Shown here piece after piece: positions 8,601-26,088 of a stretch of 53,703 nt of DNA. The stretch is from positions 1 through 53,703 of the IMG/VR virus record IMGVR_UViG_3300018939_000022; one strand, 5' to 3'. The notes beneath the pieces are model-generated. The model saw nothing but the letters and a program-made list of their open reading frames with translations. It did not search any database and was not told the origin of the DNA. The first letter of the stretch is position 1. Each line of letters opens with the position of its first letter. The translations under genes were made by a program, and so were the position numbers. The DNA comes from a virus (taxonomy: Duplodnaviria > Caudoviricetes).

Positions 8601-9699
8601 TGTCGGCGTTCTGAATCTCTTTGGTCAGCCGGCGGTATTCGTTCGACTGCAATTCAAGGGACTTTAAGACGACCGGGTTGCGGGTGATGAGGTCGCCGAT
8701 CTGGCGCAACAGCCCTTCGTAAGCCTGATCGTTCCCGGCCACCGCCCCCGTGTAGCTCTGCATCACCTTGTCCGCGTCGCCGACCTGCGCGGCAGACTCG
8801 ACGAGCAGCCCGTTGTAGAGGGCTTGGCGGGCCGCCGCGCCCTTCGTCTTGTCCGAGAGGTCTTCGAGGCGGAAGCCCCGCTCCTTGAGGATGACGGACA
8901 GGTTTTTCGTGATGCCGGCGTTATCAACTAGGACTGAGTTCTGATTCTTGACGCCCTCGGTCGCGCTGCGGATCGCGTCCCCGTATGAGAGCGCCTGCTG
9001 CTTTCCGAAAGCCGACGCATCCGAAAAACGCTCCATGAGCGTGATGGCCTGCGGCAGACTAAACCCCGTGGCGAGTAGGTTCTTGAGGCCGGTGGCGGCT
9101 TCACCGACCGAGATGATGCCGCCGCGAACGAAGCGCAGATTTTGGACGGCCCGCCGCGCCTCCTGCTCATCAATGCCCTTAAAGGCCGCGATGGATTCCA
9201 GCCCTTTGAAGGCGTTCTGCGTCTCGGCCGAGATGCGCGCGGCCTCGGCCGGTATCTGCCGGAGTTCGGAGATGAACGATCCGACAGCGCGGGCGGCGAG
9301 GCTGCCGAGGAAGTTCGCCCCGAATAGTTGCTTGAAGGTGACACTAATGCCGAGCGCGTTTCTGTCGGCGGCCTGTTTCTCCCGATCCAGCGAGCGGATA
9401 ATCTCGTTGGCCGACTGCCGGGCGTAGCGCACCCGCGCGTCGTTGAGCACCTTATTGCTGCGCTCCATCAGGCGCTCTTGAGTCTCGCCCTGCCTGCGCG
9501 TCTGCTCCCTGATCCGCTGGACTTCCCTTTCGGCCTTGTCGGTGGAACTGACGCGCGAGCGGTTGGCCGCCTCCGTTGACTTGGAAATGTTCGCGGCCAT
9601 CTGCGCGGTGGCGCGATCAACGTCCTTCTGCCCCCGCAACACCTCGCCGGTTTGCAGGTTCAGAACGATGTCAACGCTATATCTCTTTCCGTCGGCCAC
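5608..9699 (-). CDS. Tail tape measure protein with embedded peptidase domain
   Basis: 1363 aa, Ala/Gly-rich helical protein with hydrophobic C-terminal stretches, downstream of the chaperone genes. Confidence 0.92.
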   Translation of the reverse strand: MADGKRYSVDIVLNLQTGEVLRGQKDVDRATAQMAANISKSTEAANRSRVSSTDKAEREVQRIREQTRRQGETQERLMERSNKVLNDARVRYARQSANEIIRSLDREKQAADRNALGISVTFKQLFGANFLGSLAARAVGSFISELRQIPAEAARISAETQNAFKGLESIAAFKGIDEQEARRAVQNLRFVRGGIISVGEAATGLKNLLATGFSLPQAITLMERFSDASAFGKQQALSYGDAIRSATEGVKNQNSVLVDNAGITKNLSVILKERGFRLEDLSDKTKGAAARQALYNGLLVESAAQVGDADKVMQSYTGAVAGNDQAYEGLLRQIGDLITRNPVVLKSLELQSNEYRRLTKEIQNADKDQQSFFVTLLKGWELAKVNTINTVEAIGNAFEVVLRGMALFGGSIAGIVTAAVEAQVNAVIRGVNLMLGALDHPAIRALGAVSGVSAIPEGARIPEADLGGAANVQRMRSEIDSITAAYGRLNATIARSATNRRALFAAGGTGGGEMGWDIFDSRTRGRRPPGDTTDTTSPGGGTGRGRKAPAIRDEEDRFNLSEMRQIAEWFKGQTGRMLSYRAGQTPLHNRRGWDHRNAADVHLNPASSEGRLFMDYLRERGIPFTPSTGREPWSTGPHIHVGQRSQRFGANVRSRAVTRSRDEAGLTLVRDAQGQIVLPDVIRREGRPEGATSQLIPADAVARFVNRALDIRARQNAQPVEAGLVGGAGVAGADALFKTDRTTTTYGRAVEEMYDRQMAREQELHDRQRNFIHEIELIRREADNERLERGLEIVADLERAEGRLRNLRSEAADDQLSEQRRLLRVRNEEIELIERLTALQDESVTMGANAGLRQQVVLLEELNALRRADVDAIEDQIRAQVRLGDQTIFHADRANASVLEFLASQRSVTEVIADARIGVIQSTFDFIDRGLDKWTSKLGVIGGLVKDLISGFARIALSQLFAAQGGLGGGQQSGGGFNLGNILGGIFGRSGPGGTPLFNGSAGSGLGFTPSGGASIFRELAGPNIAPPVSASGGGGGQIFSAATQTMRFGDLFRGIGFGMKPGTGGPMAAMLPLLAASAGAQLGGGGIGSVIGGAGGLLAGIGLTAAPTFLAKSFLAPLFSNPFTAIAGGALVVGSLIMRRNAARRRDETLRGQINNDTGAAIWDLIRQAQQGQLGLRDARTAFDEVMRRYDQSISQIRDSKTKRIAIATRSHYTALWPTLERAAREADAVRARDESNRMNMRATYDVPISVLSGTLTGLSGGANIPPAASMPALPPTPSLPTFTAPTPSFSAPAFHAPAAGGSGASGGNLAPIHIAVHNEAVIDDQGMIRIVTTAMEQGAGRRVIIETSESRVRLSALRAPV

Positions 9700-9703
9700 G
9701 TTC

Positions 9704-10129
9704 TTACGCCTTCTTCGTCCAGCCTTCTATGAACGCCTTCATCATCGCGCCCGTCTCTGCCATGTGAACCGCGAGCGCGTGTCTGTGTTCCTGCTCCCGC
9801 TTCTCCCACGCCAAGATCAATTCCCTCTCTTCGGATAGCACGTCCTTCGGATCGGAGGGGAAGCCGCACCGCCTTTCTAAGATCAGCCGCTCGACGCGGT
9901 CGCAAAATTCCGCCTCCATCTCCCGATCAACTTCGGGCGCGGCGGCCGGCCCGCGCGGACATTTGTGGCAGCCGAACTGCCCTTCGCGCCGGAGCTTCTC
10001 CTGCTGCTCCTCTGCCGTTTTTTTCAAGTCCTGACACTCGTTCGTGCCGGGACAGTCTTGAGCGCCCGTGGTGTTGTACTGGCGATCCACTCGGAAAGCC
10101 ACGGCCCCCACGAGCGCAGCTAGTTTTTT
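9704..10129 (-). CDS. Tail assembly chaperone gpGT extension (-1 frame)
   Basis: Open -1 frame starting at the slippery A AAA AAC and ending 5 nt before the TMP start. Confidence 0.75.
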   Translation of the reverse strand, partial: KKLAALVGAVAFRVDRQYNTTGAQDCPGTNECQDLKKTAEEQQEKLRREGQFGCHKCPRGPAAAPEVDREMEAEFCDRVERLILERRCGFPSDPKDVLSEERELILAWEKREQEHRHALAVHMAETGAMMKAFIEGWTKKA

Positions 10130-10923
10130 CTTACGGCCCTCAACTGCCGCGTGACGTGCGCCGTGACGACCGGAGCTTTGTGGTGCGCCGGCACGACACC
10201 GCCCCGGTAGCCGCGCGCCCCGATCTTGAGCCGGTCGTAGAGCGCGGCCAGATCGAAGATCAGGACGTCCTGTTTGAGCGTGCCGCCGCTGGCGACCTTG
10301 GCGAACAGCGCCAGGAACTCGTTTGCGACCTTCGCATCCGCCTTCTTCAAGGTGTGGCGCGTCACCACCTCGCGGCCGTTGGAGAGGCAGCGCAGGCGCG
10401 TTCCGGCCAACCCCAAGGACTTCCACGAGACCTTGCCGCCCGCCTTCTCGTCTTCGAGGGTTTGCGTGTAGAGGATCGCGGAGTCAACGCAGTTGCGCTT
10501 CTCGTGCGCGCCGATCAGCATCTTCCAGTCGTCGGGCTTCTCGTCTTCGTCGCCCAAACCCTCGATGTCCGTCACCACGGCGTCGAACAGCCATTCGGCG
10601 GCGGCGAGCTGCGCCTCCTCGCGCGCGAGCACGGCCCCCTCGTCCGTTTCCGTCTCACGGACTTGGCTCAGGCGGCGGACGTATTCGCGGAGGTGGTGAT
10701 CGAAGGATTTCCCCTTGGCGCACGGCTCGAAGACCAACGTGACGGACACCGCGCCGTCTTCCGTGGCGAGGATGGCGGGGATGCGCTGGCGCTCCGTGGC
10801 GTCGTATTCGGCCGGGGCTTCCGACTCGGACTCATCCGAGACTTCGTCGGCCAGTTCTAGGGGTTCGGGTGGAGGTGGGGGCTGTGTTTCGAGAGGGGGA
10901 AGATCGAGTAGTTCCGTACTCAT
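10120..10923 (-). CDS. Tail assembly chaperone gpG-like
   Basis: AGGAG RBS before ATG 10923; ends gta agA AAA AAC tag. Confidence 0.8.
   Translation of the reverse strand: MSTELLDLPPLETQPPPPPEPLELADEVSDESESEAPAEYDATERQRIPAILATEDGAVSVTLVFEPCAKGKSFDHHLREYVRRLSQVRETETDEGAVLAREEAQLAAAEWLFDAVVTDIEGLGDEDEKPDDWKMLIGAHEKRNCVDSAILYTQTLEDEKAGGKVSWKSLGLAGTRLRCLSNGREVVTRHTLKKADAKVANEFLALFAKVASGGTLKQDVLIFDLAALYDRLKIGARGYRGGVVPAHHKAPVVTAHVTRQLRAVRKN
10123..10129 (-). other. Programmed -1 ribosomal frameshift heptamer A AAA AAC
   Basis: X XXY YYZ motif in the correct codon phase just before the gpG stop codon. Confidence 0.8.
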
Positions 10924-10958
10924 GCTGGCCGCTCCTAGCTTGAGGCAGCAGGCGCGGC

Positions 10959-11006
10959 AAAAACGAAAAGCCGCAACCTGAACCTTCAAAGGTCAAGTTG
11001 CGACTT
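10959..11006 (-). terminator. Intrinsic terminator downstream of the tail-region moron
   Basis: Minus-strand stem (AAGTCGCAACTTGA...TCAGGTTGCGGCTT) followed by a T-rich tract. Confidence 0.55.
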
Positions 11007-11075
11007 ACAGCACAGCTAAGAGGTCGCCCCGCGGTAAGGCACAGCCAAGAGCGCGGTAGTGCTATACTAACACAA

Positions 11076-11807
11076 CTAGAACGCGGCGGCGGCGTTATTT
11101 TGATCCAAGCTCAAAGAATTTTGCCCTCCCCTGATCTCCACTGGCACATTCCAGATCGCAAAGCCCCGCCGCGTACCCGACATGCCGTAAACCCAATAAC
11201 GCCCCGGCGGCACGTCCGCAAACTGCGCGCGGCCTTGAAAGTCTGTGGTCACAGAGAATTTGGTGTGTGTTCTGACGGCAAATTCGGCAGCTTCAATCTG
11301 TGCGTCGCGTGAGGTGGGGTAGCGCGACCTGATCGCGTAAGTTGATAGCACGCCGATCCCGCCGTCGGCGCGTAGGCCGGCTGCACTCATCAACTTCTCG
11401 GCATCTTCGTCTAACAGGTGGAACTCAGTACGGGCGACGGGTTGGTTCCCGCCCATCTTGTAGATGATGCCGGCCTCTATCAAGAGCGTGCCGGAGGTAG
11501 GCTGCGCGGCCGTTGTGGGTGCTAGAACTGCGGGCCTGTCACCGAAGGAAATCGCCTCTATGTTTTCAAGAGGCAGTGCGAGCGGGCTGCCGGCGACTTC
11601 AAGATGCAAAGTCTTCGCGTCGGCGCGAGAGAACGTGCCCGTGACAGTCTCGCCGCCTTTCAACGCGACGGTTACTTTGTGCGACGGCGCGGGTTGTTCG
11701 GCTACTTGAGGTTGGGGGCGGGACGGCACACGGCCGCGGGGCTGGCCCTGCGCGAAACTGTGAATAGAGAGAACGGTTGTGAAAGCCGCGGCGAGTAGAT
11801 ATTTCAT
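11076..11807 (-). CDS. Secreted hypothetical protein (moron)
   Basis: Signal peptide MKYLLAAAFTTVLSIHSFA; Sm-like segment; C-terminal prealbumin-like motif TTDFQGRAQFADVPPGRY. Confidence 0.8.
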   Translation of the reverse strand: MKYLLAAAFTTVLSIHSFAQGQPRGRVPSRPQPQVAEQPAPSHKVTVALKGGETVTGTFSRADAKTLHLEVAGSPLALPLENIEAISFGDRPAVLAPTTAAQPTSGTLLIEAGIIYKMGGNQPVARTEFHLLDEDAEKLMSAAGLRADGGIGVLSTYAIRSRYPTSRDAQIEAAEFAVRTHTKFSVTTDFQGRAQFADVPPGRYWVYGMSGTRRGFAIWNVPVEIRGGQNSLSLDQNNAAAAF

Positions 11808-11816
11808 GGCGCGAGG

Positions 11817-12929
11817 TTACTCCTGATCTGATTCCGATGCTGACTCCGAGGATGGCAACTCCTTTTTCCCGGCTGCGCGCTCATAGAACGCAAGTAAACG
11901 CTTCATCTTGTCACCGTATTTGTAGATGTCGTTTAGAGAATCAATCGGTATCCGCTCCTCTTTCTTATTCTCATCGAAGATGCCAATCTGCTTGCGCGCC
12001 CGGTTGAAATGCAGGCGGGCTATCGGCTTGCGGTTGTTGTCGTCTAAGAGGATGCCCATGTAACTCTGCGTGTCGCGGTGGGCGATCCTGTCAGGATCGA
12101 CCTGCTCGCGCAAGATCGACTTGACGATGTAAAAGCCCTCCAACTCCTCCTCAGTGGTTACTACCAGCCCCCCGGCCTCTTCTGACTCTAGATCGTCCGA
12201 GACAGTCGGCGCGGCGTGTCCTGACATCGCAGACTTGAGCCTATAATCGATGCGTTCGTTGATGAGCTGATGGAAGCTCCGCGCCGTGATCTGTGCGAAG
12301 TATTCCCGCCGTCCTTGGGTTAGCGCGCCGTTGAACACCTTAGAGGCGCAGAACTTCACGAATTCGTCTGAGGGGTGCTCAAGTTGTTCGGCCAGCAGCC
12401 GCTTGATCTCGCGCGTGTACTTGAGATCGCCTGCCGTGGTCATCATCTCGTCCAAGTTGAAGGCGGGCTTGGTCAGCTTCTTTAACTCGCCAACGACCGT
12501 CTCGTTCAGGTCAAGCATATCGACCTCAAGGAATGGCTTCTCGTCCATCTTGTTCGGGGCTTCCAGATCGGTGAAGAAGCGGTACACCACGCCGTTCGTG
12601 AGCACCCCGATCTTGGCCTCGGTCGTCGCGAAGTAGCGGAACAGTTGTGAGGCGTGTTTGATATTGAGGTCTGCGCCACAATGCTTGACCTCGAATAGCA
12701 TTATGATTTGACCCTCTTTTTTAATCGCATAATCGACCTTCTCGCCTTTCTTGATGCCCACGTCCGCGATGAACTCCGGCACGACTTCCGTGGGGTCGAA
12801 GATGTCGTAGCCGAGAATCTGGATGAAGGGCATGACGAGGGCGTTCTTGGTCGCCTCTTCCGTCTGTAGCAGATCGCACAGCGCGGGAACTTTCGCGGCC
12901 AACGCTTTGAGGTGATCGATGAAGTCCAT
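11817..12929 (-). CDS. HsdR N-terminal-like (PD-(D/E)XK) restriction endonuclease family protein
   Basis: TEEATKNALVMPFIQILGYD...EKVDYAI...FEVK...QLFRYF...LTNG motifs typical of the prophage-associated HSDR_N family. Confidence 0.85.
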   Translation of the reverse strand: MDFIDHLKALAAKVPALCDLLQTEEATKNALVMPFIQILGYDIFDPTEVVPEFIADVGIKKGEKVDYAIKKEGQIIMLFEVKHCGADLNIKHASQLFRYFATTEAKIGVLTNGVVYRFFTDLEAPNKMDEKPFLEVDMLDLNETVVGELKKLTKPAFNLDEMMTTAGDLKYTREIKRLLAEQLEHPSDEFVKFCASKVFNGALTQGRREYFAQITARSFHQLINERIDYRLKSAMSGHAAPTVSDDLESEEAGGLVVTTEEELEGFYIVKSILREQVDPDRIAHRDTQSYMGILLDDNNRKPIARLHFNRARKQIGIFDENKKEERIPIDSLNDIYKYGDKMKRLLAFYERAAGKKELPSSESASESDQE

Positions 12930-13081
12930 CTTGTCCGCCTATCGTGAGTGAGATCGGAACGAGCCGGGGCGTGGATGCTACCAGATCGTGCTATAATCCT
13001 GCAAAAGAAATGCTCCCGCGCCGTGCCACCGGCCGAGAGCGTGGACGAACCGATTCCGGGTTAAAGAAGATCGATCCGACG

Positions 13082-14362
13082 ATGGATAGCTTATCACAAC
13101 CCATCACTGCACACCCTTCCCCTCTAACAGCGGCAAACTGTGAACAATGCGGGAAACCCTTCAAACCGCAGCCGCGTGGTAAGACTCGCGCACCCGCGCG
13201 CTTCTGCTCGCGGGCTTGTTACTACGCCGCAACGCCTCGCAGCCGCGAGATAAAAACTTGCCTAAAGTGCCAAGGGGAGTTTGAAGTTAAACAGAGTCAT
13301 GCCGAACGAAGGCGTTACTGCTCCTATGCATGCATGGGGGCGGCCTACAAAGAACAAACTGGCGCGGCTAACCACAACTTTAGAGGCCGCAAGCAGGAAT
13401 ACACTTGCGCGGCCTGCGGAGAGGTGTTCCAAAGCTATCCGTCCAGAAGTAAGAACCTTCGATTCTGTAGCCGTGAGTGCAGGGGGGCGGGAATAACTCT
13501 CACCTGTCAAGGCTGCGGCGTCATATACCGCAAGCCGCCCTCACGATCCGGTTCGCGCTATTGTAGTCAAACTTGCAAGCATAAGTTCGCGCGCACCAGT
13601 GCACCCTCTACCCCTCGAACAAAAGCCTGCGCACGTTGCGGAAAGTGCTTTCACGTTCCGCCCTCAGAATTTGCTAAGACTAAGTTTTGTTCTCACGCCT
13701 GCGCCTACCCACCCCGAACTATAAATTGTGAAACGTGCGGTAAGTTAATCAATCGGCCACGCCTCGCTCAAAGGTATTGCAATCGGGCTTGCGTGCCGAT
13801 CCGAAGTTTTGAGCGACCCTGCGATAGATGTGGGGAGTCATTTTTAGTGGAACCTTCGCAAGCTAATACTGCTCGGTTTTGTAGTCGAGATTGCCAAAAC
13901 CAACGAATATTAAAAGACTGTGCCTTTTGCGGGGCGATTATGGAAGTTGTTCCGACACGAGCTGATGTGCAGAGATTTTGCGATCTGAAATGCTATGCCA
14001 AATGGCAAAGCGTTTATAAAGTTGGCGAGAACAGCCCCTCTTGGACTGGCGGGAAGCGGGCTGCTTGGGCTAGAAGCCGCGTGCGACGTGGCGCGGCTAT
14101 AAAGGCAACAATCACTGAGAACATCAGTCGCACCCATGTGATATTAACTTACGGACACCACTGTTACATTTGCAATCGCGCCCTTACGCGAAGGGAAATA
14201 TCAATTGATCATGTAATCCCCCTATCTCGCGGGGGTAGCCACACCTTAGATAATCTTCGGGTATGCTGTAAGTCATGCAATTCTCGAAAGTACAATAGGT
14301 TACTCTCTGAGTTCGTCTCCCTACTCCCACTCGACTACTTCGCCCGCCGCGTCACCTCTTAG
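13082..14362 (+). CDS. HNH endonuclease with eight N-terminal CxxC...CxxxC zinc-finger repeats
   Basis: Eight repeats, then CYIC...DHVIPLSRGGSHTLDNLRVCCKSCNSRK; visibly more AT-rich; TGCTATAAT at 12989-12997. Confidence 0.9.
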   Translation: MDSLSQPITAHPSPLTAANCEQCGKPFKPQPRGKTRAPARFCSRACYYAATPRSREIKTCLKCQGEFEVKQSHAERRRYCSYACMGAAYKEQTGAANHNFRGRKQEYTCAACGEVFQSYPSRSKNLRFCSRECRGAGITLTCQGCGVIYRKPPSRSGSRYCSQTCKHKFARTSAPSTPRTKACARCGKCFHVPPSEFAKTKFCSHACAYPPRTINCETCGKLINRPRLAQRYCNRACVPIRSFERPCDRCGESFLVEPSQANTARFCSRDCQNQRILKDCAFCGAIMEVVPTRADVQRFCDLKCYAKWQSVYKVGENSPSWTGGKRAAWARSRVRRGAAIKATITENISRTHVILTYGHHCYICNRALTRREISIDHVIPLSRGGSHTLDNLRVCCKSCNSRKYNRLLSEFVSLLPLDYFARRVTS

Positions 14363-20325: not shown

Positions 20326-21060
20326 TCAGGCCGCGGCCTGTCGCTTGAAGACGGGGTTCATGTCGTCAGCCTGCTTGCCCTGATCGGCCTTCGCCGCTTC
20401 GCGCGTGCGCTTGAAAACGTCAGCCGGAGGCGCACCGCCCCCCGGCGTCGAACCCGGAACCCTCACCCCGCCCCGCTGCTCCGACGAGAGCGCCGGCAGC
20501 AGATCGGACAGCTCCGGCGTGGACTTCACCACATCCGCGAAGGGCCGCTCGACAAAGCTGTTGTCGCCCTGTTTAACCTTGGCGACGACCTCTTTCTTCC
20601 CGTCTTTGCCGTCGCGGACTTCAAGGGTCGAGAAGTCGTAAACTTTGGTCGCCAGCCGGGCGGTCTTTTCCTTGTCCCACCCCATCACCGCGCCGACCGA
20701 GTGCGCGTGCGCGGCGGCCTCTGCCGCTTCGGCCGTGGTCTTGTAGTTGTCGCGCTCGGTCTTCAAGGTGTTGAAGTCTTCGGGCTTCGTGATGCCCGCC
20801 GCCTTGACCGCCACGGCGAGATCGTGATCTGCCTTGGGGACGGCGACGTGGCCGTGCGGGATGACCTTGGCGGCGGCGAGCGCGCCCTTCGCCTCGTCAC
20901 GCTCCCGCTCTGCGGTCTGCTTCTCCGTGACGAGCTGGCGGTTGTTCGAGAGGACGGGATGATCGTCCGAGAGTTCGGGGACGTAGCGGCCCCCGACGAG
21001 TTTGTAGTGCTCGCGCAGTGCCTCCGGCACGTCGTCGAGCTTGTCGTAGATTTTCAGCAT
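20326..21060 (-). CDS. Capsid scaffolding protein
   Basis: LDDVPEALREHYK N-terminus, coiled coil, Gly/Pro tail; ATG 21060 with GGAG RBS. Confidence 0.75.
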   Translation of the reverse strand: MLKIYDKLDDVPEALREHYKLVGGRYVPELSDDHPVLSNNRQLVTEKQTAERERDEAKGALAAAKVIPHGHVAVPKADHDLAVAVKAAGITKPEDFNTLKTERDNYKTTAEAAEAAAHAHSVGAVMGWDKEKTARLATKVYDFSTLEVRDGKDGKKEVVAKVKQGDNSFVERPFADVVKSTPELSDLLPALSSEQRGGVRVPGSTPGGGAPPADVFKRTREAAKADQGKQADDMNPVFKRQAAA

Positions 21061-21106
21061 CGGTCTCCGCCTGTTGCTGCTCCCGCGCTCCGGCGAGGTT
21101 GGCTGG

Positions 21107-21141
21107 AAAAAGAAAAAGCCCGCGCTCGAAAGCGACGGGCT
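21107..21141 (-). terminator. Intrinsic terminator upstream of the scaffold gene
   Basis: AGCCCGTCGCT TTCG AGCGCGGGCT followed by TTTTCTTTTT. Confidence 0.7.
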
Positions 21142-21189
21142 GTAAGGCCAAGTCACTAACAAACGCGGGCGGGATGTGAATCCAAACCC

Positions 21190-21393
21190 TTATGCTTTTA
21201 TCAAATCACAGAGGTCGTCGAGTTCGTCTTGCAGGGTGTTGAACCGACGGCGCAGATCAAGGATGCGCGCCTTGACTTCCGGCGGAATGTTAGCACACTT
21301 TTCGCGGTCTGCGGGCGTGCCAGGGAATTTTTTTTCGCCCGCCTTGACCACCCTAATCGGCTGTCGGTGTGCGCTCACGGCTTCACAGAACAT
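21190..21393 (-). CDS. Hypothetical protein
   Basis: 67-aa ORF coupled to its neighbour. Confidence 0.45.
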   Translation of the reverse strand: MFCEAVSAHRQPIRVVKAGEKKFPGTPADREKCANIPPEVKARILDLRRRFNTLQDELDDLCDLIKA

Positions 21394-21574
21394 CCTTCGA
21401 GGGTTCGGGTACGATCTCTAAACCGATGCCCTCGATCTCGATCTTGGCGGTAGTCAACGATTCTTCCTGATTAAACGTCCACTCGATTGACAACACGCCC
21501 TCCACCTCGCCGCCCCCGTCCGCGACGAGTTTCGTACCCTTGCGCGTGCCGTCAGAGATGATCTGAAGTTTCAC
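21383..21574 (-). CDS. Hypothetical protein
   Basis: GTG start with GAGGGGG RBS. Confidence 0.5.
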   Translation of the reverse strand: MKLQIISDGTRKGTKLVADGGGEVEGVLSIEWTFNQEESLTTAKIEIEGIGLEIVPEPSKDVL

Positions 21575-21575
21575 G

Positions 21576-21845
21576 CTATCGCCCCCTCGCCCCCTCGCCC
21601 GTGCGGTCGTCAACCGGGGGCGGCGGCACTACCCTCACCGCTTCCCCCTCCTTCGCGATCCTCTTCAGTTCGGCAGATTTAAGGGGATCAACCCACTTCT
21701 CTCTAGCACGGTCGGGATACAAGTAGATGAATCGGATGATTCTCAACGTGCGCTTTTCTATTTGCCGCGCGCGTTCTCTTGAAACGCCAAGAACCTCTCC
21801 GACTTCGCGCAGGGTTTTACCGCCCATGCGCAGTGAATAAACCAC
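21576..21845 (-). CDS. Sigma-70 region-4-like HTH protein
   Basis: TLREVGEVLGVSRERARQIEKR is the classic region 4.2 motif. Confidence 0.75.
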   Translation of the reverse strand: MVYSLRMGGKTLREVGEVLGVSRERARQIEKRTLRIIRFIYLYPDRAREKWVDPLKSAELKRIAKEGEAVRVVPPPPVDDRTGEGARGR

Positions 21846-21906
21846 TCGTAGCGGCTTTGCCTCATAAGCCCTTTTTGCCTCATAAGTCGGCGGGCTGCCT
21901 CAAAAG

Positions 21907-22104
21907 TCACGCCGCAGCCTTTCCGCTTCGTCGCCTCTTAGGTTCAGGGAAAGGCACTCCGCTATCCCTGAAATGCTCGAAAGAGCGGACGGACTTTTTG
22001 AGCGCGGCGATCTGCCTCTTGGCTTCCGCGATAGCCTCATCCCACTTGCTTAAATTTTTTTCCCCCGATTTGCTTAAAGTTGTGGACGCAGTTGTATTTT
22101 TCAT
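21907..22104 (-). CDS. Small coiled-coil hypothetical protein
   Basis: AAGGAG RBS; divergent from the 22131 gene. Confidence 0.6.
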   Translation of the reverse strand: MKNTTASTTLSKSGEKNLSKWDEAIAEAKRQIAALKKSVRSFEHFRDSGVPFPEPKRRRSGKAAA

Positions 22105-22130
22105 GTATGCTCCTTCCGTTGGAGGTGGTT

Positions 22131-22733
22131 ATGAGCAGCGACTACTGGAAAGAAGTTCTGACGACCGCAAAGGTAAGACTCTCCGAGTTGCGCGCGAGGC
22201 GCGACGAACTCGACGCGGAGCGTGAGGAAGTCAACCTCGAAATAGTGCAGTTGGAGCAGGTCGTGACGAACCTCTCGCCGCTGGTGGCTGAGCGCGCGCA
22301 AAGCCCGCTGATCTACAGCCTCATGTCCCCGCTTCCTACGAACCTCGCCGATGCCTGCCGTGAAGTTCTCAGGCAAGTCAAAAAGTACATGACCCCGATT
22401 GAGATTCGGAACACGCTTGCCGCAAGCGGGTATGACCTTAGCCAGCACAACAACCCGCTCGCGAGCATCCACGGCATTCTTAAGCGGTTGGCGGAGAGCG
22501 GCGAGGTCGAGGCACTCACACACGATCTCAAAGGTACTATGTATAGCTGGAAGAGTACGGGCGGCGTTCGCGTCCCCGGCTCGACCCCCAGTTCGGGTAC
22601 GCCCTACGACTTGCTGCCGCAGCGTCCCGCGAAGCCCGGACACCGCGCAGACCCGCCTCCCGCCGAAGGGCGAGGGCCTCTGAGGCGTCTGCCGCTGCCG
22701 CCTAAAGATAAAGAGGGGAAGAAAAGGGAATGA
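22131..22733 (+). CDS. Coiled-coil plus winged-helix protein
   Basis: GGAGGT RBS; N-terminal heptads, then LADACREVL...MTPIEIRNTL...LASIHGILKRL wHTH pattern. Confidence 0.8.
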   Translation: MSSDYWKEVLTTAKVRLSELRARRDELDAEREEVNLEIVQLEQVVTNLSPLVAERAQSPLIYSLMSPLPTNLADACREVLRQVKKYMTPIEIRNTLAASGYDLSQHNNPLASIHGILKRLAESGEVEALTHDLKGTMYSWKSTGGVRVPGSTPSSGTPYDLLPQRPAKPGHRADPPPAEGRGPLRRLPLPPKDKEGKKRE

Positions 22734-22749
22734 TGAGGAATTAGTTAAC

Positions 22750-22843
22750 GGGGGTCTGGGTGAGTGGTTTAAACCACTGGTCTGAGAAGCCAGCGACGGT
22801 GCTACCACACCGTCCGTCCGTTCAAATCGGACGACCCCCGCCA
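22750..22843 (+). tRNA. Class II tRNA, anticodon GAG (Leu) on a tRNA-Ser-type body
   Basis: Acceptor stem GGGGGTC/GACCCCC; D-arm GGT..GG..ACC; anticodon arm CTGGT-CTGAGAA-GCCAG; 7-bp variable stem; T-arm GTCCG-TTCAAAT-CGGAC; G73 and encoded CCA. Confidence 0.92.
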
Positions 22844-22970
22844 ACTTAGCAGCCACGGCGGAAGCGGTAACTTCCGCCGTGGCATTCAACCACACAGCCG
22901 AAGCTATGCGGCCTAAGCATCCGAAATTATAGCTTGACGCTGTGTGTTCACCAAGTGAGGAACACACGCC

Positions 22971-23225
22971 ATGTCCATCCGCGAACAGAAGGCCCGCCAG
23001 ATCATCGAGCGCGCCAACATCACCCGCAACGGCAACCTCTGGCTTGTCCCTTCCCAGTCGGGACGCGGACGCTACAAAGTTGACGCTGAGAAGCGAAGCT
23101 GCTCCTGCCCTGACTACGACTTTCGCCGCCAGCCCTGCAAGCACATCTTCGCCGTCGAGTTGATCGTCAAGCGCGGTACGATTGAAGATGTTAAATACGG
23201 AAAGACTTGGAAGCATGTTGACTAG
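22971..23225 (+). CDS. SWIM zinc-finger protein (possibly a truncated transposase N-terminus)
   Basis: CSCPDY...PCKH SWIM motif; GAGG RBS; TTGACG upstream. Confidence 0.75.
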   Translation: MSIREQKARQIIERANITRNGNLWLVPSQSGRGRYKVDAEKRSCSCPDYDFRRQPCKHIFAVELIVKRGTIEDVKYGKTWKHVD

Positions 23226-24895
23226 GCGGCCTGCTGCGCGCCCCTCTTCTCACCCGCCGCCGAACTGTCCGGCCTTTCGGAACTGTCGGGCGCGGCCGGC
23301 GTCCCCGTAAGCTGACTCATCCTGACTCGCGCCGCTTCAATCAGTGTGTTTTCTTGATCGGTGTCCTCTACGCCCGTGGCGCGCTGCACCCGCTCTTTAG
23401 ACCAGACCCCCTTCTCCCACAGCGAGACGTACATCGTGACCTCTTCGGGCGTGACAGGCCCCGTGTCTATCCGGCAGTCGGCGTTGGCGCGCAGGGAGTC
23501 GAACCGTCCCGGCTGGCCTGAGAGCGTGGCGGCCATCGCCAGCACGGTTTCGAGCGCCCACCGGCACGCGGCGTCCACCTCGCCCTTCGTCGGGTTCAGG
23601 GAGAGGGCGAAGCCCCCGCGCGCCTGAACCCTTGAAACGCCCGTGGCCTGCGCGTCCCCCGCAATCAGCGTGTGAACCTGCTTGGACTCTTCGAGTATGT
23701 CCCGGTAGTCGGCCCGCTCGCTCCCGATGAACACGTCCACAGGCGACGGCTCACTCCGCTCGATGTAGGGCTGCTCGACGTGCTCCTTGCCTTCCCCGTC
23801 AGTCCACCTGAACCCCGTCCACGCATTGATGACGGGCGGGCCGCGCTTGATCGGGTCGGGCACGAATTTCTGTGAGCCGTCCGGTTGGGTTACGATCTTG
23901 CCGGGCAGATCGACGTTCAGGAGCGTCGTCTCGGCGAAGCCGGCGGTGTTGAGGTTGTGCCCCCTTAAGGTCTTGGCCTTGTTGAGCTGCTTGTTGCTCT
24001 GGACGATCTGCGGCGTGATGAAGGGCTTGCGCCGCATCTCGTAGATGAGCAGACGCCCGCCCAGGTCGAACGTGGCCGGCTCCGCGTCGGCCTCCCGCCG
24101 GGGCGTGGCGGAGAAAATCGACTGGTAGCTCGATTGTGGCGTGTACGGAACGGCCGGGTTGTTCTCATCCCTCAATACCTTCCAGACGGTCTCCTTCGCG
24201 TCGTTCAGGTAAGTTATCTCTGCGACTTCCTCCTCGCCGTCTTTGACCGCGAACACCCCGGCCTGGCGTCGGCTGTACGGGTCGGTCAGCACCGTGGCCT
24301 GATCGTAGGGCAGGGCCTCGACGAAGATTTTCTCTAAGGACTCTTCCAGCGGGGCGGTAGGGATCATCCCATTTTCCCCGACCTCTGCCGGCGGAATGAA
24401 GAGGCGCATCGGTGCGCGGGTCGTCTTGAGCAGCGTCTCGGTCGCGTCCTGAAAGACCTTCAGCATCCGCCGCTCGTTCCACCACACGGTCAGCGCGGCC
24501 TGCGCCTCCCGGATTAGGGCCTGCTCCTTTTCGTTCGGCTTCTCGTCCTCCGTGAGTTCGCGCCCGTCTAGGATTTCACCTTTCTTCGCCAGCGGCCTGC
24601 GGACGGTCAATGCCCACTCGATCTCGCGGCTCACCACCCCGTCGCGGTGGCCGTCCGTGATGTCGCGCACGGCGTTCTTGCTGGCGAACTCCTTTTCGAC
24701 CTTGTCGTAAGACGCCGGGTTGTTGCGGTCGCCGTCGGCCGGCTGCGGCCCCGTCCAGAATCGGCCTTTGTCGAAGTGCTCGCCGTCGTAGAAGAGGAGG
24801 TTGTCGGCCGCGCCCCACTTGTCGGCCTCTTTCTTGGCCCCCGTGACGGCCTCGGCTATCTGGCGGCGGGTCAACGTGTCGAATTGGATTCTCAT
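23222..24895 (-). CDS. Portal protein
   Basis: About 557 aa right after TerL with ATGA overlap; FYDGEHF N-terminal motif. Confidence 0.85.
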   Translation of the reverse strand: MRIQFDTLTRRQIAEAVTGAKKEADKWGAADNLLFYDGEHFDKGRFWTGPQPADGDRNNPASYDKVEKEFASKNAVRDITDGHRDGVVSREIEWALTVRRPLAKKGEILDGRELTEDEKPNEKEQALIREAQAALTVWWNERRMLKVFQDATETLLKTTRAPMRLFIPPAEVGENGMIPTAPLEESLEKIFVEALPYDQATVLTDPYSRRQAGVFAVKDGEEEVAEITYLNDAKETVWKVLRDENNPAVPYTPQSSYQSIFSATPRREADAEPATFDLGGRLLIYEMRRKPFITPQIVQSNKQLNKAKTLRGHNLNTAGFAETTLLNVDLPGKIVTQPDGSQKFVPDPIKRGPPVINAWTGFRWTDGEGKEHVEQPYIERSEPSPVDVFIGSERADYRDILEESKQVHTLIAGDAQATGVSRVQARGGFALSLNPTKGEVDAACRWALETVLAMAATLSGQPGRFDSLRANADCRIDTGPVTPEEVTMYVSLWEKGVWSKERVQRATGVEDTDQENTLIEAARVRMSQLTGTPAAPDSSERPDSSAAGEKRGAQQAA

Positions 24896-26088
24896 CCCGA
24901 ATGCACCCCGCTGAATGACTTGGTGATCTGCGGCTCGCGCGGCAGACTCAGCCACTCCGTGCCGTACCGCCCGCCGTCAATGGCGTGGTTGTCGAAGTCA
25001 ATCACCTCGTCCAAAATCTGCCCGGTTTTCTTATCCTTTTTCCAACTGTAACGCTTGGCCTCTCGCAATAGGTTTGCGCTGCCTTCGTGGATTCGGAGCG
25101 GCCTCGACTTCACGCGATCAATACTGGCCTTGACAGAACCCGGCCCTTTATACGCGCCCACGATCTTGAAGCCCGCGCGCCGTATCTCTTCAATGGTTTT
25201 CGGCTCAGCCGAGTCTGCGACGATGTATGAGGTTGCGAGTTCGGGGATTTCCTTCAACTTCTCTATCAGATCGGCTGTGGTTAATTTTGTTTGGTATAGC
25301 ATCTCACGCCAGTACAACTCGGCGTCATACAGCCGCGTTTCCGTTAGCGCGGTCGGCTCGTTGTAGCCGAAGTCCAAGCCGTAGGCGGCTGCACCCTTGC
25401 CATGGGGGTAGGCGGCATCCGTGACGGTTTTCCAGTGGGTGAAGACCCGCGTAGAACCCGAACCTATCTCTCCGAGTCCGTAAACCTTCCAGTAATCCTC
25501 GTCCACGTCGCGCAGCCTTTCGATCTCAGAGACAAGCGACTCCTCAAGAAACGGGTTGTCTCTGTAGGTGGTCACACACAGTTCGCTGTCGTCGCGCATT
25601 TCCACCTGATCGTAAATCCAAGAGAACGGGTCAGACGGGTTGTAGTCTAAGACGATCTTGTCGGTCGTTCTGAGGGCCAACTGCCGGAATGACTCAAGCT
25701 CATTCTCGTTGGCCTCGTTCAAGAACAAGACGTTGCGCTTGCGCCCCCTCACCCGCTCTGCCTGATCCACTCCGATGAACTCGAAGAGGTTGGAGCCTAA
25801 CTGATACTCGTTATTGCTTTTGTTGTGGCTCGACTCCCGGTATAAATCCAGACGGTTTAGAATCTCGAAGAAGTCGCGCATGGCGGACGCGCGGAGGGCA
25901 GGCAGAGTGTTTCGCGCGACCGTGCAGACTTCCCCCTGCGCGAGTCGCGCCCACACGAGAATGAGAAACAATAGGACGTTGTAGGTCTTCCCCGAACGAG
26001 TGCCGCCGCGCAAAGATGTGATTCGCGCGCGGGACTTGTTCAAGACGCGGAAGACCTTATTCGTCCGAATCTCCATTCGAGTCAACAA
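24892..26088 (-). CDS. terL: Terminase large subunit (PBSX/SPP1-type)
   Basis: Walker A GGTRSGKT, LFLNEANE, DYNPS, GLDFGY, DNHAIDGGRY. Confidence 0.95.
   Translation of the reverse strand: MLTRMEIRTNKVFRVLNKSRARITSLRGGTRSGKTYNVLLFLILVWARLAQGEVCTVARNTLPALRASAMRDFFEILNRLDLYRESSHNKSNNEYQLGSNLFEFIGVDQAERVRGRKRNVLFLNEANENELESFRQLALRTTDKIVLDYNPSDPFSWIYDQVEMRDDSELCVTTYRDNPFLEESLVSEIERLRDVDEDYWKVYGLGEIGSGSTRVFTHWKTVTDAAYPHGKGAAAYGLDFGYNEPTALTETRLYDAELYWREMLYQTKLTTADLIEKLKEIPELATSYIVADSAEPKTIEEIRRAGFKIVGAYKGPGSVKASIDRVKSRPLRIHEGSANLLREAKRYSWKKDKKTGQILDEVIDFDNHAIDGGRYGTEWLSLPREPQITKSFSGVHSG

What the first reader, a model, noticed from the sequence alone, without database searches (positions are those of the whole stretch)
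22750..22843. tRNA with serine identity elements but a leucine (GAG) anticodon: candidate mistranslating tRNA
Seen: an intact cloverleaf with G73, G1-C72, G2-C71, G15:C48, a 7-bp variable stem with no unpaired base before C48, and A37-A38. Established: bacterial tRNA-Leu uses A73, A15:U48 and G37 for CUN readers, whereas these features are tRNA-Ser determinants and SerRS ignores the anticodon. Inference: it would insert Ser at CUC/CUU codons. It could act as a toxin, abortive-infection effector, proteome diversifier or anticodon-nuclease decoy. It recalls allo-tRNAs but has a normal 7/5 acceptor/T-stem fold.
Basis: partly seen in the sequence, partly recalled or inferred. Interest (0 to 1): 0.86.

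Follow-up and report, generated by a model that had tools for sequence, protein, structure and literature searches.

The report
Transposon-borne serine-type tRNA reading leucine codons
A well-conserved tRNA gene built like a serine tRNA but carrying a leucine anticodon sits in a broken transposon inside a prophage, and its relatives in other soil bacteria keep the same body while swapping anticodons, which suggests deliberate mis-reading of the genetic code.

Summary
Window 22750-22843 (+) is a 94-nt, 7/5-fold, long-variable-arm tRNA with anticodon GAG, G73, G15/C48, A37-A38 and encoded CCA. A model built from 30 serine tRNAs of the host and 24 relatives scores it 70.7 bits. A model built from 25 leucine tRNAs reports no match.

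It is not a lone oddity. It is cargo of a truncated IS-like element (21851-23225) inserted between phage genes of an integrated prophage. The element runs: end repeats, small ORF, winged-helix regulator (ORF200), tRNA, covarying hairpin and leader, then the first ~75 codons of a SWIM-DDE transposase.

Ten other cassettes with the same gene order carry a homologous type-II tRNA in that slot. Its anticodons are GAG, UAG, UAA, CAA, CCA, GUA, UUA and never a serine one, while C32, U33, A37 and A38 are invariant. Twenty of 25 base pairs covary.

A diverged relative in another soil study keeps GAG. No recoding of CUC was found.

Best reading: a serine-charged missense-suppressor tRNA, a canonical-fold cousin of the published acidobacterial allo-tRNAs. 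Charging and expression are untested. This is a new variant of a known kind.

The parts
21851..21909 (.). Left end of the IS-like element: three copies of a GCCTCA(A/T)AAG(T/C) repeat
   Evidence: Read. The same three repeats stand at the left end of the L097 element. That element is bounded by ~42-nt inverted repeats at 8846 and 12022. No right-end copy is found in the window.
21907..22104 (-). ORF65, a small divergent ORF of the cassette, function unknown
   Evidence: ORF. tblastn homologues stand in the same position in L004, L006, L016 and in L018 and L019. No Pfam, PADLOC or NCBIfam family matched.
22131..22733 (+). ORF200: long N-terminal helix plus winged-helix DNA-binding domain, the presumed regulator, ending 17 nt before the tRNA
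   Evidence: 37 homologues found. AlphaFold2 mean pLDDT 81, with helix 3-52 and a wHTH at 72-140. Best Foldseek PDB matches are Zur/Fur/PerR DNA-binding domains, E >= 2.8e-3. Weak HARE-HTH Pfam hit at E 0.005, below the cut-off.
22750..22843 (+). The tRNA: serine-type body (G73, G15/C48, 7-bp variable stem), anticodon GAG at 22784-22786, CCA encoded
22852..22883 (+). 13-bp hairpin directly after the tRNA with no U tract; start of the transposase leader
   Evidence: RNAalifold on 8 loci shows 10 of 13 pairs kept through changes on both sides. The simple terminator scan did not call it.
22884..22970 (+). Conserved leader between hairpin and transposase start: nearly invariant ~50 nt with a predicted 7+5-bp stem, then the ribosome-binding site
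   Evidence: Alignments. No Rfam family matched.
22971..23225 (+). Truncated transposase: SWIM zinc finger only (84 codons, the first ~70-76 homologous); the DDE domain is missing
   Evidence: PF04434 at E 1.5e-09. Full-length homologues of 402-444 aa carry PF04434 plus PF01609. tblastn covers only residues ~1-81 here, whereas host contig C13 holds a full-length copy.
23222..24955 (-). Phage portal gene abutting the truncated element (context)
   Evidence: 22 homologues, one of them with PF05133. Terminase genes lie next to it.
21576..21845 (-). Phage sigma-70 region-4-like HTH gene abutting the element's left end (context)
   Evidence: PF04545 at E 1.3e-09; phrog_351.

Best explanation
The gene encodes a real, selectively maintained tRNA whose body carries bacterial serine-tRNA features but whose anticodon GAG reads the leucine codons CUC and CUU. 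It is cargo of an IS-like transposable element with the order: end repeats, ORF65, winged-helix regulator ORF200, tRNA, hairpin and leader, SWIM-DDE transposase. In this genome the element lies dead, with its transposase cut after ~75 codons, between the sigma-like HTH gene and the portal gene of an integrated prophage.

Inferred mechanism:
- The tRNA is transcribed with ORF200 and cut out by the tRNA-processing enzymes.
- It is charged with serine by the host's single SerRS, which does not read the anticodon.
- It competes with the host tRNA-Leu(GAG) at CUC/CUU, the host's commonest leucine codons, inserting Ser for Leu.
- ORF200 probably holds expression low, so the tRNA acts as a conditional, toxin-like missense suppressor.

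Shown: the structure, the serine-type classification, conservation and covariation, the cassette and its transposon nature, anticodon turnover across the family, and the absence of recoding.

Inferred: co-transcription, serylation, decoding, regulation and toxicity.
For: (1) Serine type.
- Ser model R1 gives 70.7 bits. The host's own Ser-UGA scores 74.3 and Ser-GGA 105.6. Leu model R2 gives no hit at E <= 10, whereas host Leu tRNAs score 66.8-107.3.
- nhmmer gives 15.6 bits on the Ser profile and no Leu hit.
- Local references: G73 in 30 of 30 Ser tRNAs. In 25 of 25 Leu tRNAs, A73 and A15. G37 in 22 of 25 Leu tRNAs.

(2) Selection.
- 97.8% of cells are paired, 20 of 25 pairs show double changes, and 0 of 500 shuffles reach the observed values.
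- The relative in X4 differs only in the variable arm, while its ORF200 (P0024) is only 52% identical.

(3) Family.
- A tRNA lies between ORF200 and the SWIM gene in 11 of 11 loci that have both.
- Ten of these carry a type-II tRNA. Their anticodons are GAG, UAG, UAA x2, CAA, CCA x2, GUA and UUA x2, and none is a serine anticodon.
- Adding the SWIM-less L013 (GCA) gives the 11 type-II tRNAs aligned in A6: 0 of 11 serine anticodons, and C32, U33, A37 and A38 are 11 of 11.
- The window, L004 and L023 share one scaffold but carry GAG, UAG and GUA.

(4) Precedent. The Silvibacterium (8/4) allo-tRNA-GAG and (9/3) allo-tRNA-UAA inserted Ser at CUC and UUA in E. coli, and induction arrested growth (PMC5389517, section 15 read).

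(5) One SerRS and one LeuRS score over the cut-off in the host.

(6) CUC makes up 49% of host Leu codons.
Against: - No charging or expression data exist.
- The phage does not avoid CUC (32.5% of its Leu codons). Its 13 portal CUC codons align with Leu (49%) and other hydrophobic residues in 12 homologues, not with Ser.
- The transposases of sister cassettes keep the cognate codons at conserved Trp, Tyr and Leu positions. Strong mistranslation would therefore hurt the element and the phage.
- The discriminator is A73 in 3 of 11 members (L004 UAG, L027 UAA, L012 UUA).
- The window's lineage seems to have moved UAA to UAG to GAG, staying within leucine codons. This is an inference.
- The sequence-only Ser score is far below true Ser tRNAs (15.6 bits against >= 48.1).
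- The host tRNA-Tyr also scores 78.8 bits on the Ser model, so the model separates Ser/Tyr-like from Leu-like tRNAs, not Ser alone.
- G36-A37 lacks the m1G37 context of CUN readers.
- The element is truncated here.
Confidence: 0.55

Rival explanations
1. The tRNA is kept mainly as an RNA-processing or regulatory element of the transposon (tRNA punctuation). RNase P and 3' processing would cut the ORF200-tRNA-transposase transcript and leave a transposase mRNA that starts with a protective hairpin. On this reading the tRNA is little used, or not used, in translation.
For: - The hairpin and leader begin right after the CCA in 8 loci, and the hairpin covaries.
- Solo transposase copies carry a promoter-like sequence in place of ORF200 and the tRNA, followed by a similar ACTTAGCA-plus-hairpin start in L097.
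- The elements' own transposases keep the cognate codons at conserved positions.
- Mukai et al. found allo-tRNA-UAU variants inactive in translation and suggested regulatory roles (PMC5389517, section 16 read).
Against: - Pure processing does not explain why 0 of 11 anticodons are serine ones, or why C32, U33, A37 and A38 are invariant and A36 is kept in 9 of 11.
- It does not explain why CCA is encoded and G1-C72/G2-C71 are invariant.
- A serine-type body with a harmless serine anticodon would serve processing equally well.
Confidence: 0.2
2. It is a working leucine tRNA of unusual design, charged by LeuRS, that supplies extra decoding capacity for CUC/CUU or replaces a host tRNA-Leu cut by a defence nuclease.
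For: - Five of the 11 type-II members carry leucine anticodons, and the window's close kin stay within the leucine boxes (GAG, UAG).
- Two serine-scaffold members with leucine anticodons have A73, the key LeuRS determinant.
- CUC is the most used Leu codon in the host and is common in the phage.
- Phage tRNAs that evade tRNA-cutting defences are documented (search listing and abstracts only).
Against: - This copy has G73, G15/C48, no unpaired base before C48, and A37.
- The Leu model gives no hit, whereas true Leu tRNAs score 66.8-107.3 bits.
- 25 of 25 local Leu tRNAs have A73 and A15.
- The same scaffold carries GUA with G73 in L023, and UUA (ochre), CCA and GCA elsewhere, which cannot all be leucine acceptors.
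Confidence: 0.12
3. It is a silent relic: a passenger left in a dead transposon copy, no longer expressed and of no consequence to phage or host.
For: - The transposase is truncated to its first ~75 codons and no right end is found.
- The region has lower G+C than its surroundings, 0.57-0.58 against about 0.65.
- No sigma-70-like promoter was found in 21000-23400 by the simple scan.
Against: - ORF200 is intact, and the tRNA has a perfect cloverleaf with CCA.
- An independent soil contig keeps the acceptor, D, anticodon and T arms unchanged although the flanking ORF has diverged strongly. This argues for ongoing purifying selection.
Confidence: 0.1

Closest known systems
Allo-tRNAs of Acidobacteria (Mukai et al. 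2017, Nucleic Acids Res, PMC5389517; sections 13-16 read)
   Same: - Long variable arm and G73 serine-type identity with non-serine anticodons. The published set includes GAG, UAA and the ochre anticodon.
- Acidobacterial hosts.
- Links to transposon-related genes and toxin-antitoxin neighbourhoods.
- An ORF200-family gene here is followed by a 9/3 allo-like tRNA in L110.
- Ser insertion at CUC was shown experimentally for the 8/4 GAG species.
   Different: - This tRNA has the canonical 7/5 acceptor/T fold, a 3-bp D stem with a normal serine-type D loop, and a 5-bp anticodon stem.
- A defined cassette (ORF65, winged-helix ORF200, SWIM-DDE transposase, terminal repeats) and a prophage location are not described in the sections I read. 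The paper's figures and supplements were not seen.
tRNA-Ser(CAG) of CUG-clade yeasts (recalled; passages of PMC11415595 seen)
   Same: A serine tRNA body with a leucine-box anticodon, made possible because SerRS ignores the anticodon. Ser and Leu tRNAs compete at one codon in Ascoidea.
   Different: The yeast case is eukaryotic and chromosomal, and goes with genome-wide codon reassignment or avoidance. Here CUC stays a normal, abundant leucine codon and the gene rides on a mobile element.
Streptomyces tRNA-ProA/ProX mistranslation systems (PMC10404621; search listing and abstract only)
   Same: A naturally encoded bacterial tRNA whose identity and anticodon disagree, proposed as regulated mistranslation.
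   Different: Recalled from memory: those systems work with a dedicated ProRS paralogue. No extra SerRS or LeuRS was found here, and the amino acid and codons differ.
Phage tRNAs that counter tRNA-cutting defences (PARIS, retron and anticodon-nuclease evasion; abstracts only)
   Same: A tRNA gene carried by a phage genome, with sequence variation focused on the anticodon loop.
   Different: Those tRNAs keep the identity that matches their anticodon. This one has the wrong identity for its anticodon and belongs to a transposon rather than to the phage core.

Membership tests
Bacterial tRNA-Ser (SerRS substrate) | Type-II body: a long variable arm whose stem abuts position 48 with no unpaired 3' base | tested here: met
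   A 7-bp stem plus 6-nt loop, followed directly by C48. Local Ser tRNAs have 5-6-bp variable stems that also abut C48.
Bacterial tRNA-Ser (SerRS substrate) | Discriminator G73 with G1-C72 and G2-C71 | tested here: met
   Read. G73 is found in 30 of 30 reference Ser tRNAs. G1-C72 and G2-C71 are found in 11 of 11 family members.
Bacterial tRNA-Ser (SerRS substrate) | Serine-type D arm (A14, G15 pairing with C48, 20a/20b insertion) and overall profile | tested here: met
   The D loop AGUGGUUUA is identical in layout to the host Ser-CGA. The Ser covariance model scores 70.7 bits, E 2.3e-14. Caveat: the host tRNA-Tyr also scores 78.8 bits on this model.
Bacterial tRNA-Ser (SerRS substrate) | Serine anticodon (NGA or GCU); defines the isoacceptor but is not a SerRS determinant | tested here: not met
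   The anticodon is GAG.
Bacterial tRNA-Ser (SerRS substrate) | Actual serylation by SerRS | not testable with these tools
   This needs an aminoacylation assay.
Bacterial tRNA-Leu | Discriminator A73 | tested here: not met
   The window tRNA has G73, whereas 25 of 25 reference Leu tRNAs have A73.
Bacterial tRNA-Leu | A15 (pairing with U48), leucine-type D loop, unpaired bases 3' of the variable stem, and G37 in CUN readers | tested here: not met
   The window tRNA has G15, C48 and A37, with no unpaired base before C48. The references have A15 in 25 of 25 and G37 in 22 of 25. The Leu covariance model gives no hit at E <= 10 with default filters.
Bacterial tRNA-Leu | Leucine anticodon | tested here: met
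   GAG reads CUC and CUU.
Allo-tRNA (Mukai 2017) | 12-bp acceptor branch in an 8/4 or 9/3 arrangement | tested here: not met
   The arrangement is 7/5. U8 faces C65, so the acceptor stem cannot extend. ARAGORN and the Rfam tRNA model fit a standard cloverleaf.
Allo-tRNA (Mukai 2017) | Long D stem with tetraloop and a lengthened anticodon stem (tRNA-Sec-like) | tested here: not met
   The D stem has 3 bp with a 9-nt loop, and the anticodon stem has 5 bp.
Allo-tRNA (Mukai 2017) | Serine (G73, long variable arm) identity combined with a non-serine anticodon | tested here: met
IS element with SWIM-DDE_Tnp_1 transposase | Intact transposase and two terminal inverted repeats | tested here: not met
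   Only the left-end repeats (21851-21909) and the first ~75 transposase codons are present. Intact sister elements exist in L097 and others.
Phage counter-defence tRNA | Identity matching the anticodon, so that it can replace the cleaved host tRNA | tested here: not met
   The body is serine-type while the anticodon is a leucine one.

The most novel reading that the evidence does not exclude
A family of transposable elements in Acidobacteriota carries a 'programmable' missense or nonsense-suppressor tRNA as functional cargo. The tRNA has a constant serine-accepting body, and its anticodon is under diversifying selection (Leu, Trp, Tyr, Cys, ochre). A winged-helix repressor controls it. Together they would act as a toxin-antitoxin-like, addiction or defence module in which the toxin is a tRNA that rewrites one codon. 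The published allo-tRNAs would be one structural branch of this system and the 7/5 tRNA in this prophage another.
Probability: 0.3. Interest if true: 0.8.

Novelty: new variant of a known kind. Interest (0 to 1): 0.62.

Why it matters
Natural tRNAs that deliberately mis-read sense codons are rare, and few have been studied. The acidobacterial allo-tRNAs showed that such molecules exist and work in E. coli, but their biology is unexplained.

This locus adds three things:
- The same identity/anticodon mismatch occurs on an ordinary 7/5 cloverleaf, so it is not tied to the exotic allo fold.
- The tRNA has fixed protein partners and terminal repeats. It is cargo of a transposon that also lands in prophages, which gives a route for horizontal spread of codon-specific mistranslation.
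- Closely related copies differ almost only in the anticodon and never carry a serine anticodon, which is the pattern expected if mis-decoding itself is selected.

If serylation and decoding are confirmed, this would give a testable system for asking what regulated mistranslation does for mobile elements. It would also supply a set of natural, orthogonal-looking suppressor scaffolds.

Tried and rejected
- No match for the tRNA +-50 nt in 50,697 phage records (blastn).
- Three exact or IUPAC patterns from the tRNA found nothing in IMG/VR.
- Portal and ORF200 protein scans of IMG/VR found no relative.
- DNA search in 61 related genomes found only a partial 39-nt match. That match later proved to be the L007 tRNA.
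- The portal relative in an Acidobacteriota MAG (L003) has no tRNA within 6 kb.
- No RNA holder was listed among the sequencing runs, so expression could not be examined.
- The 243-nt contig of X2/X3 covers 22749-22820 with 6 differences whose positions were not listed, so its anticodon is unknown.
- Recoding of CUC to Ser in the phage is rejected: portal CUC codons align with Leu and other hydrophobic residues.
- 'Codon lock' (the element's transposase needing its own tRNA) is rejected. Cognate TGG, TAY and TTR codons sit at conserved Trp, Tyr and Leu columns.
- Ochre read-through of the L100 transposase is rejected: the gene is frameshifted, not interrupted by an in-frame stop with the frame continuing.
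- The 8/4 or 9/3 fold is rejected by inspection.
- PADLOC and NCBIfam gave nothing meaningful for ORF200, the SWIM ORF or ORF65.
- No dedicated SerRS or LeuRS paralogue was found.
- Whole-length identity to host tRNAs barely discriminates: Ser 68% and 66%, Tyr 64%, Leu 63%.
- Earlier-findings look-up was not open.
- Literature searches for transposon- or prophage-borne missense suppressor tRNAs returned only Mukai 2017 as relevant. The supplements and figures of that paper were not seen and may show similar gene neighbourhoods.

Full report
**1. The observation**

ARAGORN calls one tRNA in the window, at 22750-22843 (+), Leu(GAG). Rfam's tRNA model matches at 52.5 bits.

Read base by base, the molecule has these parts:
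- A 7-bp acceptor stem (G1-C72, G2-C71, G3-C70 and so on), G73 and an encoded CCA.
- A 3-bp D stem with loop A14 G15 U16 G18 G19 U20 U20a U20b A21.
- A 5-bp anticodon stem with loop C U G A G A A.
- A 7-bp variable stem with a 6-nt loop that runs straight into C48.
- A 5-bp T stem.

An 8/4 or 9/3 fold is excluded because U8 would face C65.

RNAfold alone gives -45.1 kcal/mol (z -3.36) but mis-pairs the D and anticodon region. The cloverleaf therefore rests on the tRNA-specific programs and on covariation (section 5).

**2. Is the anticodon real?**

- A 60,983-nt contig of run X1, which may be the source sample and so is not independent, is identical over 22000-23600.
- A 4,431-nt contig at depth 27.7 from another soil study (X4) covers 22727-22946 with 9 differences. 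Eight are listed: five in the variable arm (22794, 22802, 22805, 22807, 22813) and three downstream. None is at 22784-22786. One difference is unlisted.
- The same X4 contig covers ORF200 only in patches, with many differences. The ORF200 homologue on a 4,431-nt contig (P0024) is 52% identical.

The tRNA is thus conserved far better than its neighbour.

**3. Serine or leucine?**

I collected 30 distinct Ser and 25 distinct Leu tRNAs from the host and 24 relatives and built a covariance model from each set.

Scores in bits, Ser model / Leu model:

| tRNA | Ser model | Leu model |
|---|---|---|
| Window tRNA | 70.7 | no hit at E <= 10 (default filters) |
| Host Ser-GGA | 105.6 | 25.4 |
| Host Ser-UGA | 74.3 | 52.4 |
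| Host Tyr | 78.8 | 52.3 |
| Host Leu-GAG | 47.1 | 107.3 |
| Host Leu-UAG | 56.5 | 92.7 |
| Host Leu-CAA | 49.2 | 66.8 |

- The body is clearly not leucine-type. The Ser model does not separate Ser from Tyr. G73 and the variable-arm base do that.
- In the references, G73 is found in 30 of 30 Ser tRNAs. In the Leu tRNAs, A73 and A15 are each found in 25 of 25, and G37 in 22 of 25.
- A sequence-only profile is weaker. It gives 15.6 bits on the Ser profile and no Leu hit, where true Ser tRNAs score >= 48.1. Whole-length identity hardly discriminates.
- The host has one SerRS and one LeuRS over the family cut-offs.

**4. Where it sits**

- The window is a temperate phage. It holds terminase small and large subunits, portal, major head protein, primase, helicase and a serine-type integrase.
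- The first ~36 kb of the contig carries ordinary chromosomal genes: an HtrA-like protease, an amidotransferase, TyrRS and a TonB-type receptor. The phage is therefore an integrated prophage.
- Sources name homologous proteins 'Pyrinomonadaceae bacterium'. The one portal relative found in genomes lies in an Acidobacteriota MAG.
- The tRNA lies on the strand opposite the head genes, in a low-G+C patch.

**5. The cassette**

- ORF200 (22131-22733) ends 17 nt before the tRNA. It has a long N-terminal helix and a winged-helix DNA-binding domain.
- An 84-codon SWIM zinc-finger ORF follows the tRNA. A small ORF65 is divergent upstream.
- A metagenome pattern scan found L004. ORF200 protein searches of 401 phylum-level and 401 class-level genomes each gave 13 genomes with hits; the class tally includes one unpublished genome.
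- In 11 of 11 loci that have both ORF200 and the SWIM gene, a tRNA lies between them.

Their anticodons differ:

| Locus | Anticodon | Discriminator and notes |
|---|---|---|
| Window | GAG | G73 |
| L004 | UAG | A73, no CCA |
| L006 | UAA | G73 |
| L016 | CAA | G73 |
| L007 | CCA | G73 |
| L018 | CCA | G73 |
| L023 | GUA | G73 |
| L012 | UUA | A73 |
| L026 | UUA | G73 |
| L027 | UAA | A73 |
| L019 | UGC | type I, U73 |

- Three further ORF200 loci that lack the SWIM gene carry GCA (L013), UGC (L017) and UGC (L022).
- On the model-fitted alignment of 11 type-II members, 97.8% of cells pair, 20 of 25 pairs show double changes, and 0 of 500 shuffles reach the observed values.
- C32, U33, A37 and A38 are 11 of 11. 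A36 is 9 of 11. G73 is 8 of 11. No anticodon is a serine one.
- The window, L004 and L023 share nearly the same D arm, anticodon stem and variable stem, yet carry GAG, UAG and GUA.
- Six of the anticodons (UAA, UUA, CAA, CCA, GUA, GCA) are single position-35 changes of the serine anticodons UGA, CGA and GGA. UAG and GAG are further steps inside the leucine boxes. This is an inference from the code table.

**6. It is a transposon**

- In the other loci the SWIM ORF is the N-terminus of a 402-444-aa protein with a DDE_Tnp_1 transposase domain.
- The L097 element is bounded by ~42-nt inverted repeats. Its left-end triple repeat recurs at window 21851-21909.
- In the window, only about the first 75 transposase codons remain, and no right end is found. 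The host has one full-length solo copy on another contig.
- None of the window's other phage genes is found within +-10 kb of nine other cassettes, so the cassette moves on its own.
- Between the tRNA and the transposase start lies a 13-bp hairpin, in which 10 of 13 pairs covary across 8 loci, followed by a nearly invariant ~50-nt element.

**7. Tests of what the tRNA is for**

- No recoding. The 13 CUC codons of the portal gene align with Leu (49%) and other hydrophobic residues in 12 homologues.
- No avoidance. CUC+CUU run at 33.5 per 1000 codons in the phage and 51.5 per 1000 in the host, where CUC is 49% of Leu codons.
- No 'private code'. In sister elements the cognate codons of the transposase sit at conserved Trp, Tyr and Leu columns.
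- No known defence family matched.
- ORF200 relatives are very common in another acidobacterial family: 126 of 301 genomes, a tally that includes two unpublished genomes. Of the 30 best loci there, only three have a tRNA directly downstream.
- One of these, L110, has an ochre-type tRNA followed by a tRNA that hits the tRNA-Sec model at 43.6 bits and reads as a 9/3 allo-tRNA with GCA. This ties the ORF200 family to the published allo-tRNAs.

**8. Comparison with what is known**

Mukai et al. (PMC5389517; sections 13-16 read) reported the following:
- Ser insertion at CUC and UUA by two of them in E. coli, with growth arrest on induction.
- Links to transposon-related genes, toxin-antitoxin systems and polycistrons of irregular 7/5 and 8/4 tRNAs.

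The present tRNA fails the structural definition of an allo-tRNA but matches it in identity logic and host phylum. Searches for transposon- or prophage-borne missense suppressors found nothing else relevant. I could not see that paper's figures or supplements.

**9. Verdict**

The most likely mechanism is serylation and low-level or conditional Ser-for-Leu insertion at CUC/CUU under ORF200 control, as cargo of a now-dead transposon copy in a prophage (confidence 0.55).

The rival readings are:
- A processing or regulatory RNA (0.2).
- A true leucine acceptor (0.12).
- A silent relic (0.1).

This is a new variant of a known kind.

Noticed in passing
G000 contig C245:8167-8253 (locus L029:2001-2087): A second identity/anticodon mismatch in the same genome. 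It is an 87-nt type-II tRNA with A73 and a leucine-type D arm (Leu model 69.9 bits, Ser model 56.7), but its anticodon is AGG (proline codons) and its T loop is the odd UCCGAAC. A 357-aa ORF on the opposite strand next to it reads by eye like an IS1595-type zinc-ribbon transposase; this was not tested.
   Followed up: partly
G000 contig C40 (14.4 kb), about 8960-14150: An array of 36 tRNA genes on one short contig. It includes three short (73-75 nt, type-I-length) tRNAs with leucine anticodons and A73. This may be a phage- or element-borne tRNA array.
   Followed up: no
window 22852-22970: A conserved untranslated leader between the tRNA and the transposase start. It consists of a hairpin with extensive covariation and a nearly invariant ~50-nt element (...GGCCUAAGCAACCAAGAUUAUA...). 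No Rfam family matches it. It may be a new structured RNA or an operator.
   Followed up: partly
window 11817-14362: A low-G+C (0.54-0.56) two-gene insert in the prophage. One protein has a type-I restriction HSDR_N domain. The other is a 472-aa protein whose C-terminal HNH resembles PtuB of Septu-type defence systems. It is a possible prophage defence moron.
   Followed up: no
window 20326-21162 (-) and 22131-22733 (+): The C-terminal tails of ORF200 and of the 278-aa head-module protein share the motif GGVRVPGSTP. The meaning is unknown.
   Followed up: no
L110:1233-1411 (-): Downstream of an ORF200 homologue lie two tandem odd tRNAs. The first has an ochre-type UUA anticodon. The second is an 88-nt tRNA with a 9-bp acceptor and 3-bp T stem, anticodon GCA and G73, and it hits Rfam tRNA-Sec at 43.6 bits. 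This looks like the published allo-tRNA polycistrons.
   Followed up: partly
L020, directly downstream of the ORF200 homologue: An ORF that reads by eye like a HicA-type toxin occupies the place held by the tRNA in the cassettes. This hints that ORF200-family proteins serve as antitoxin-like partners. It was not tested against any family library.
   Followed up: no
L097:14189-15523, L098:12277-13500, L100:15407-16681: Second, solo copies of the SWIM-DDE transposase lie 2-5 kb from the tRNA cassettes. They have promoter-like palindromic sequences in place of ORF200 and the tRNA.
   Followed up: partly
G000 contig C18:7896-7957: A partial copy (nt 29-90, 97% identical) of the host tRNA-Ser(CGA). 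It may be an attachment-site remnant of an integrated element.
   Followed up: no
f35 genomes, table: Many ORF200-family matches are reported with one to three in-frame stop codons (TGA, TAG or TAA). These could be alignment overruns past the true stop or broken copies. I did not check whether any co-occur with suppressor-type tRNAs.
   Followed up: no
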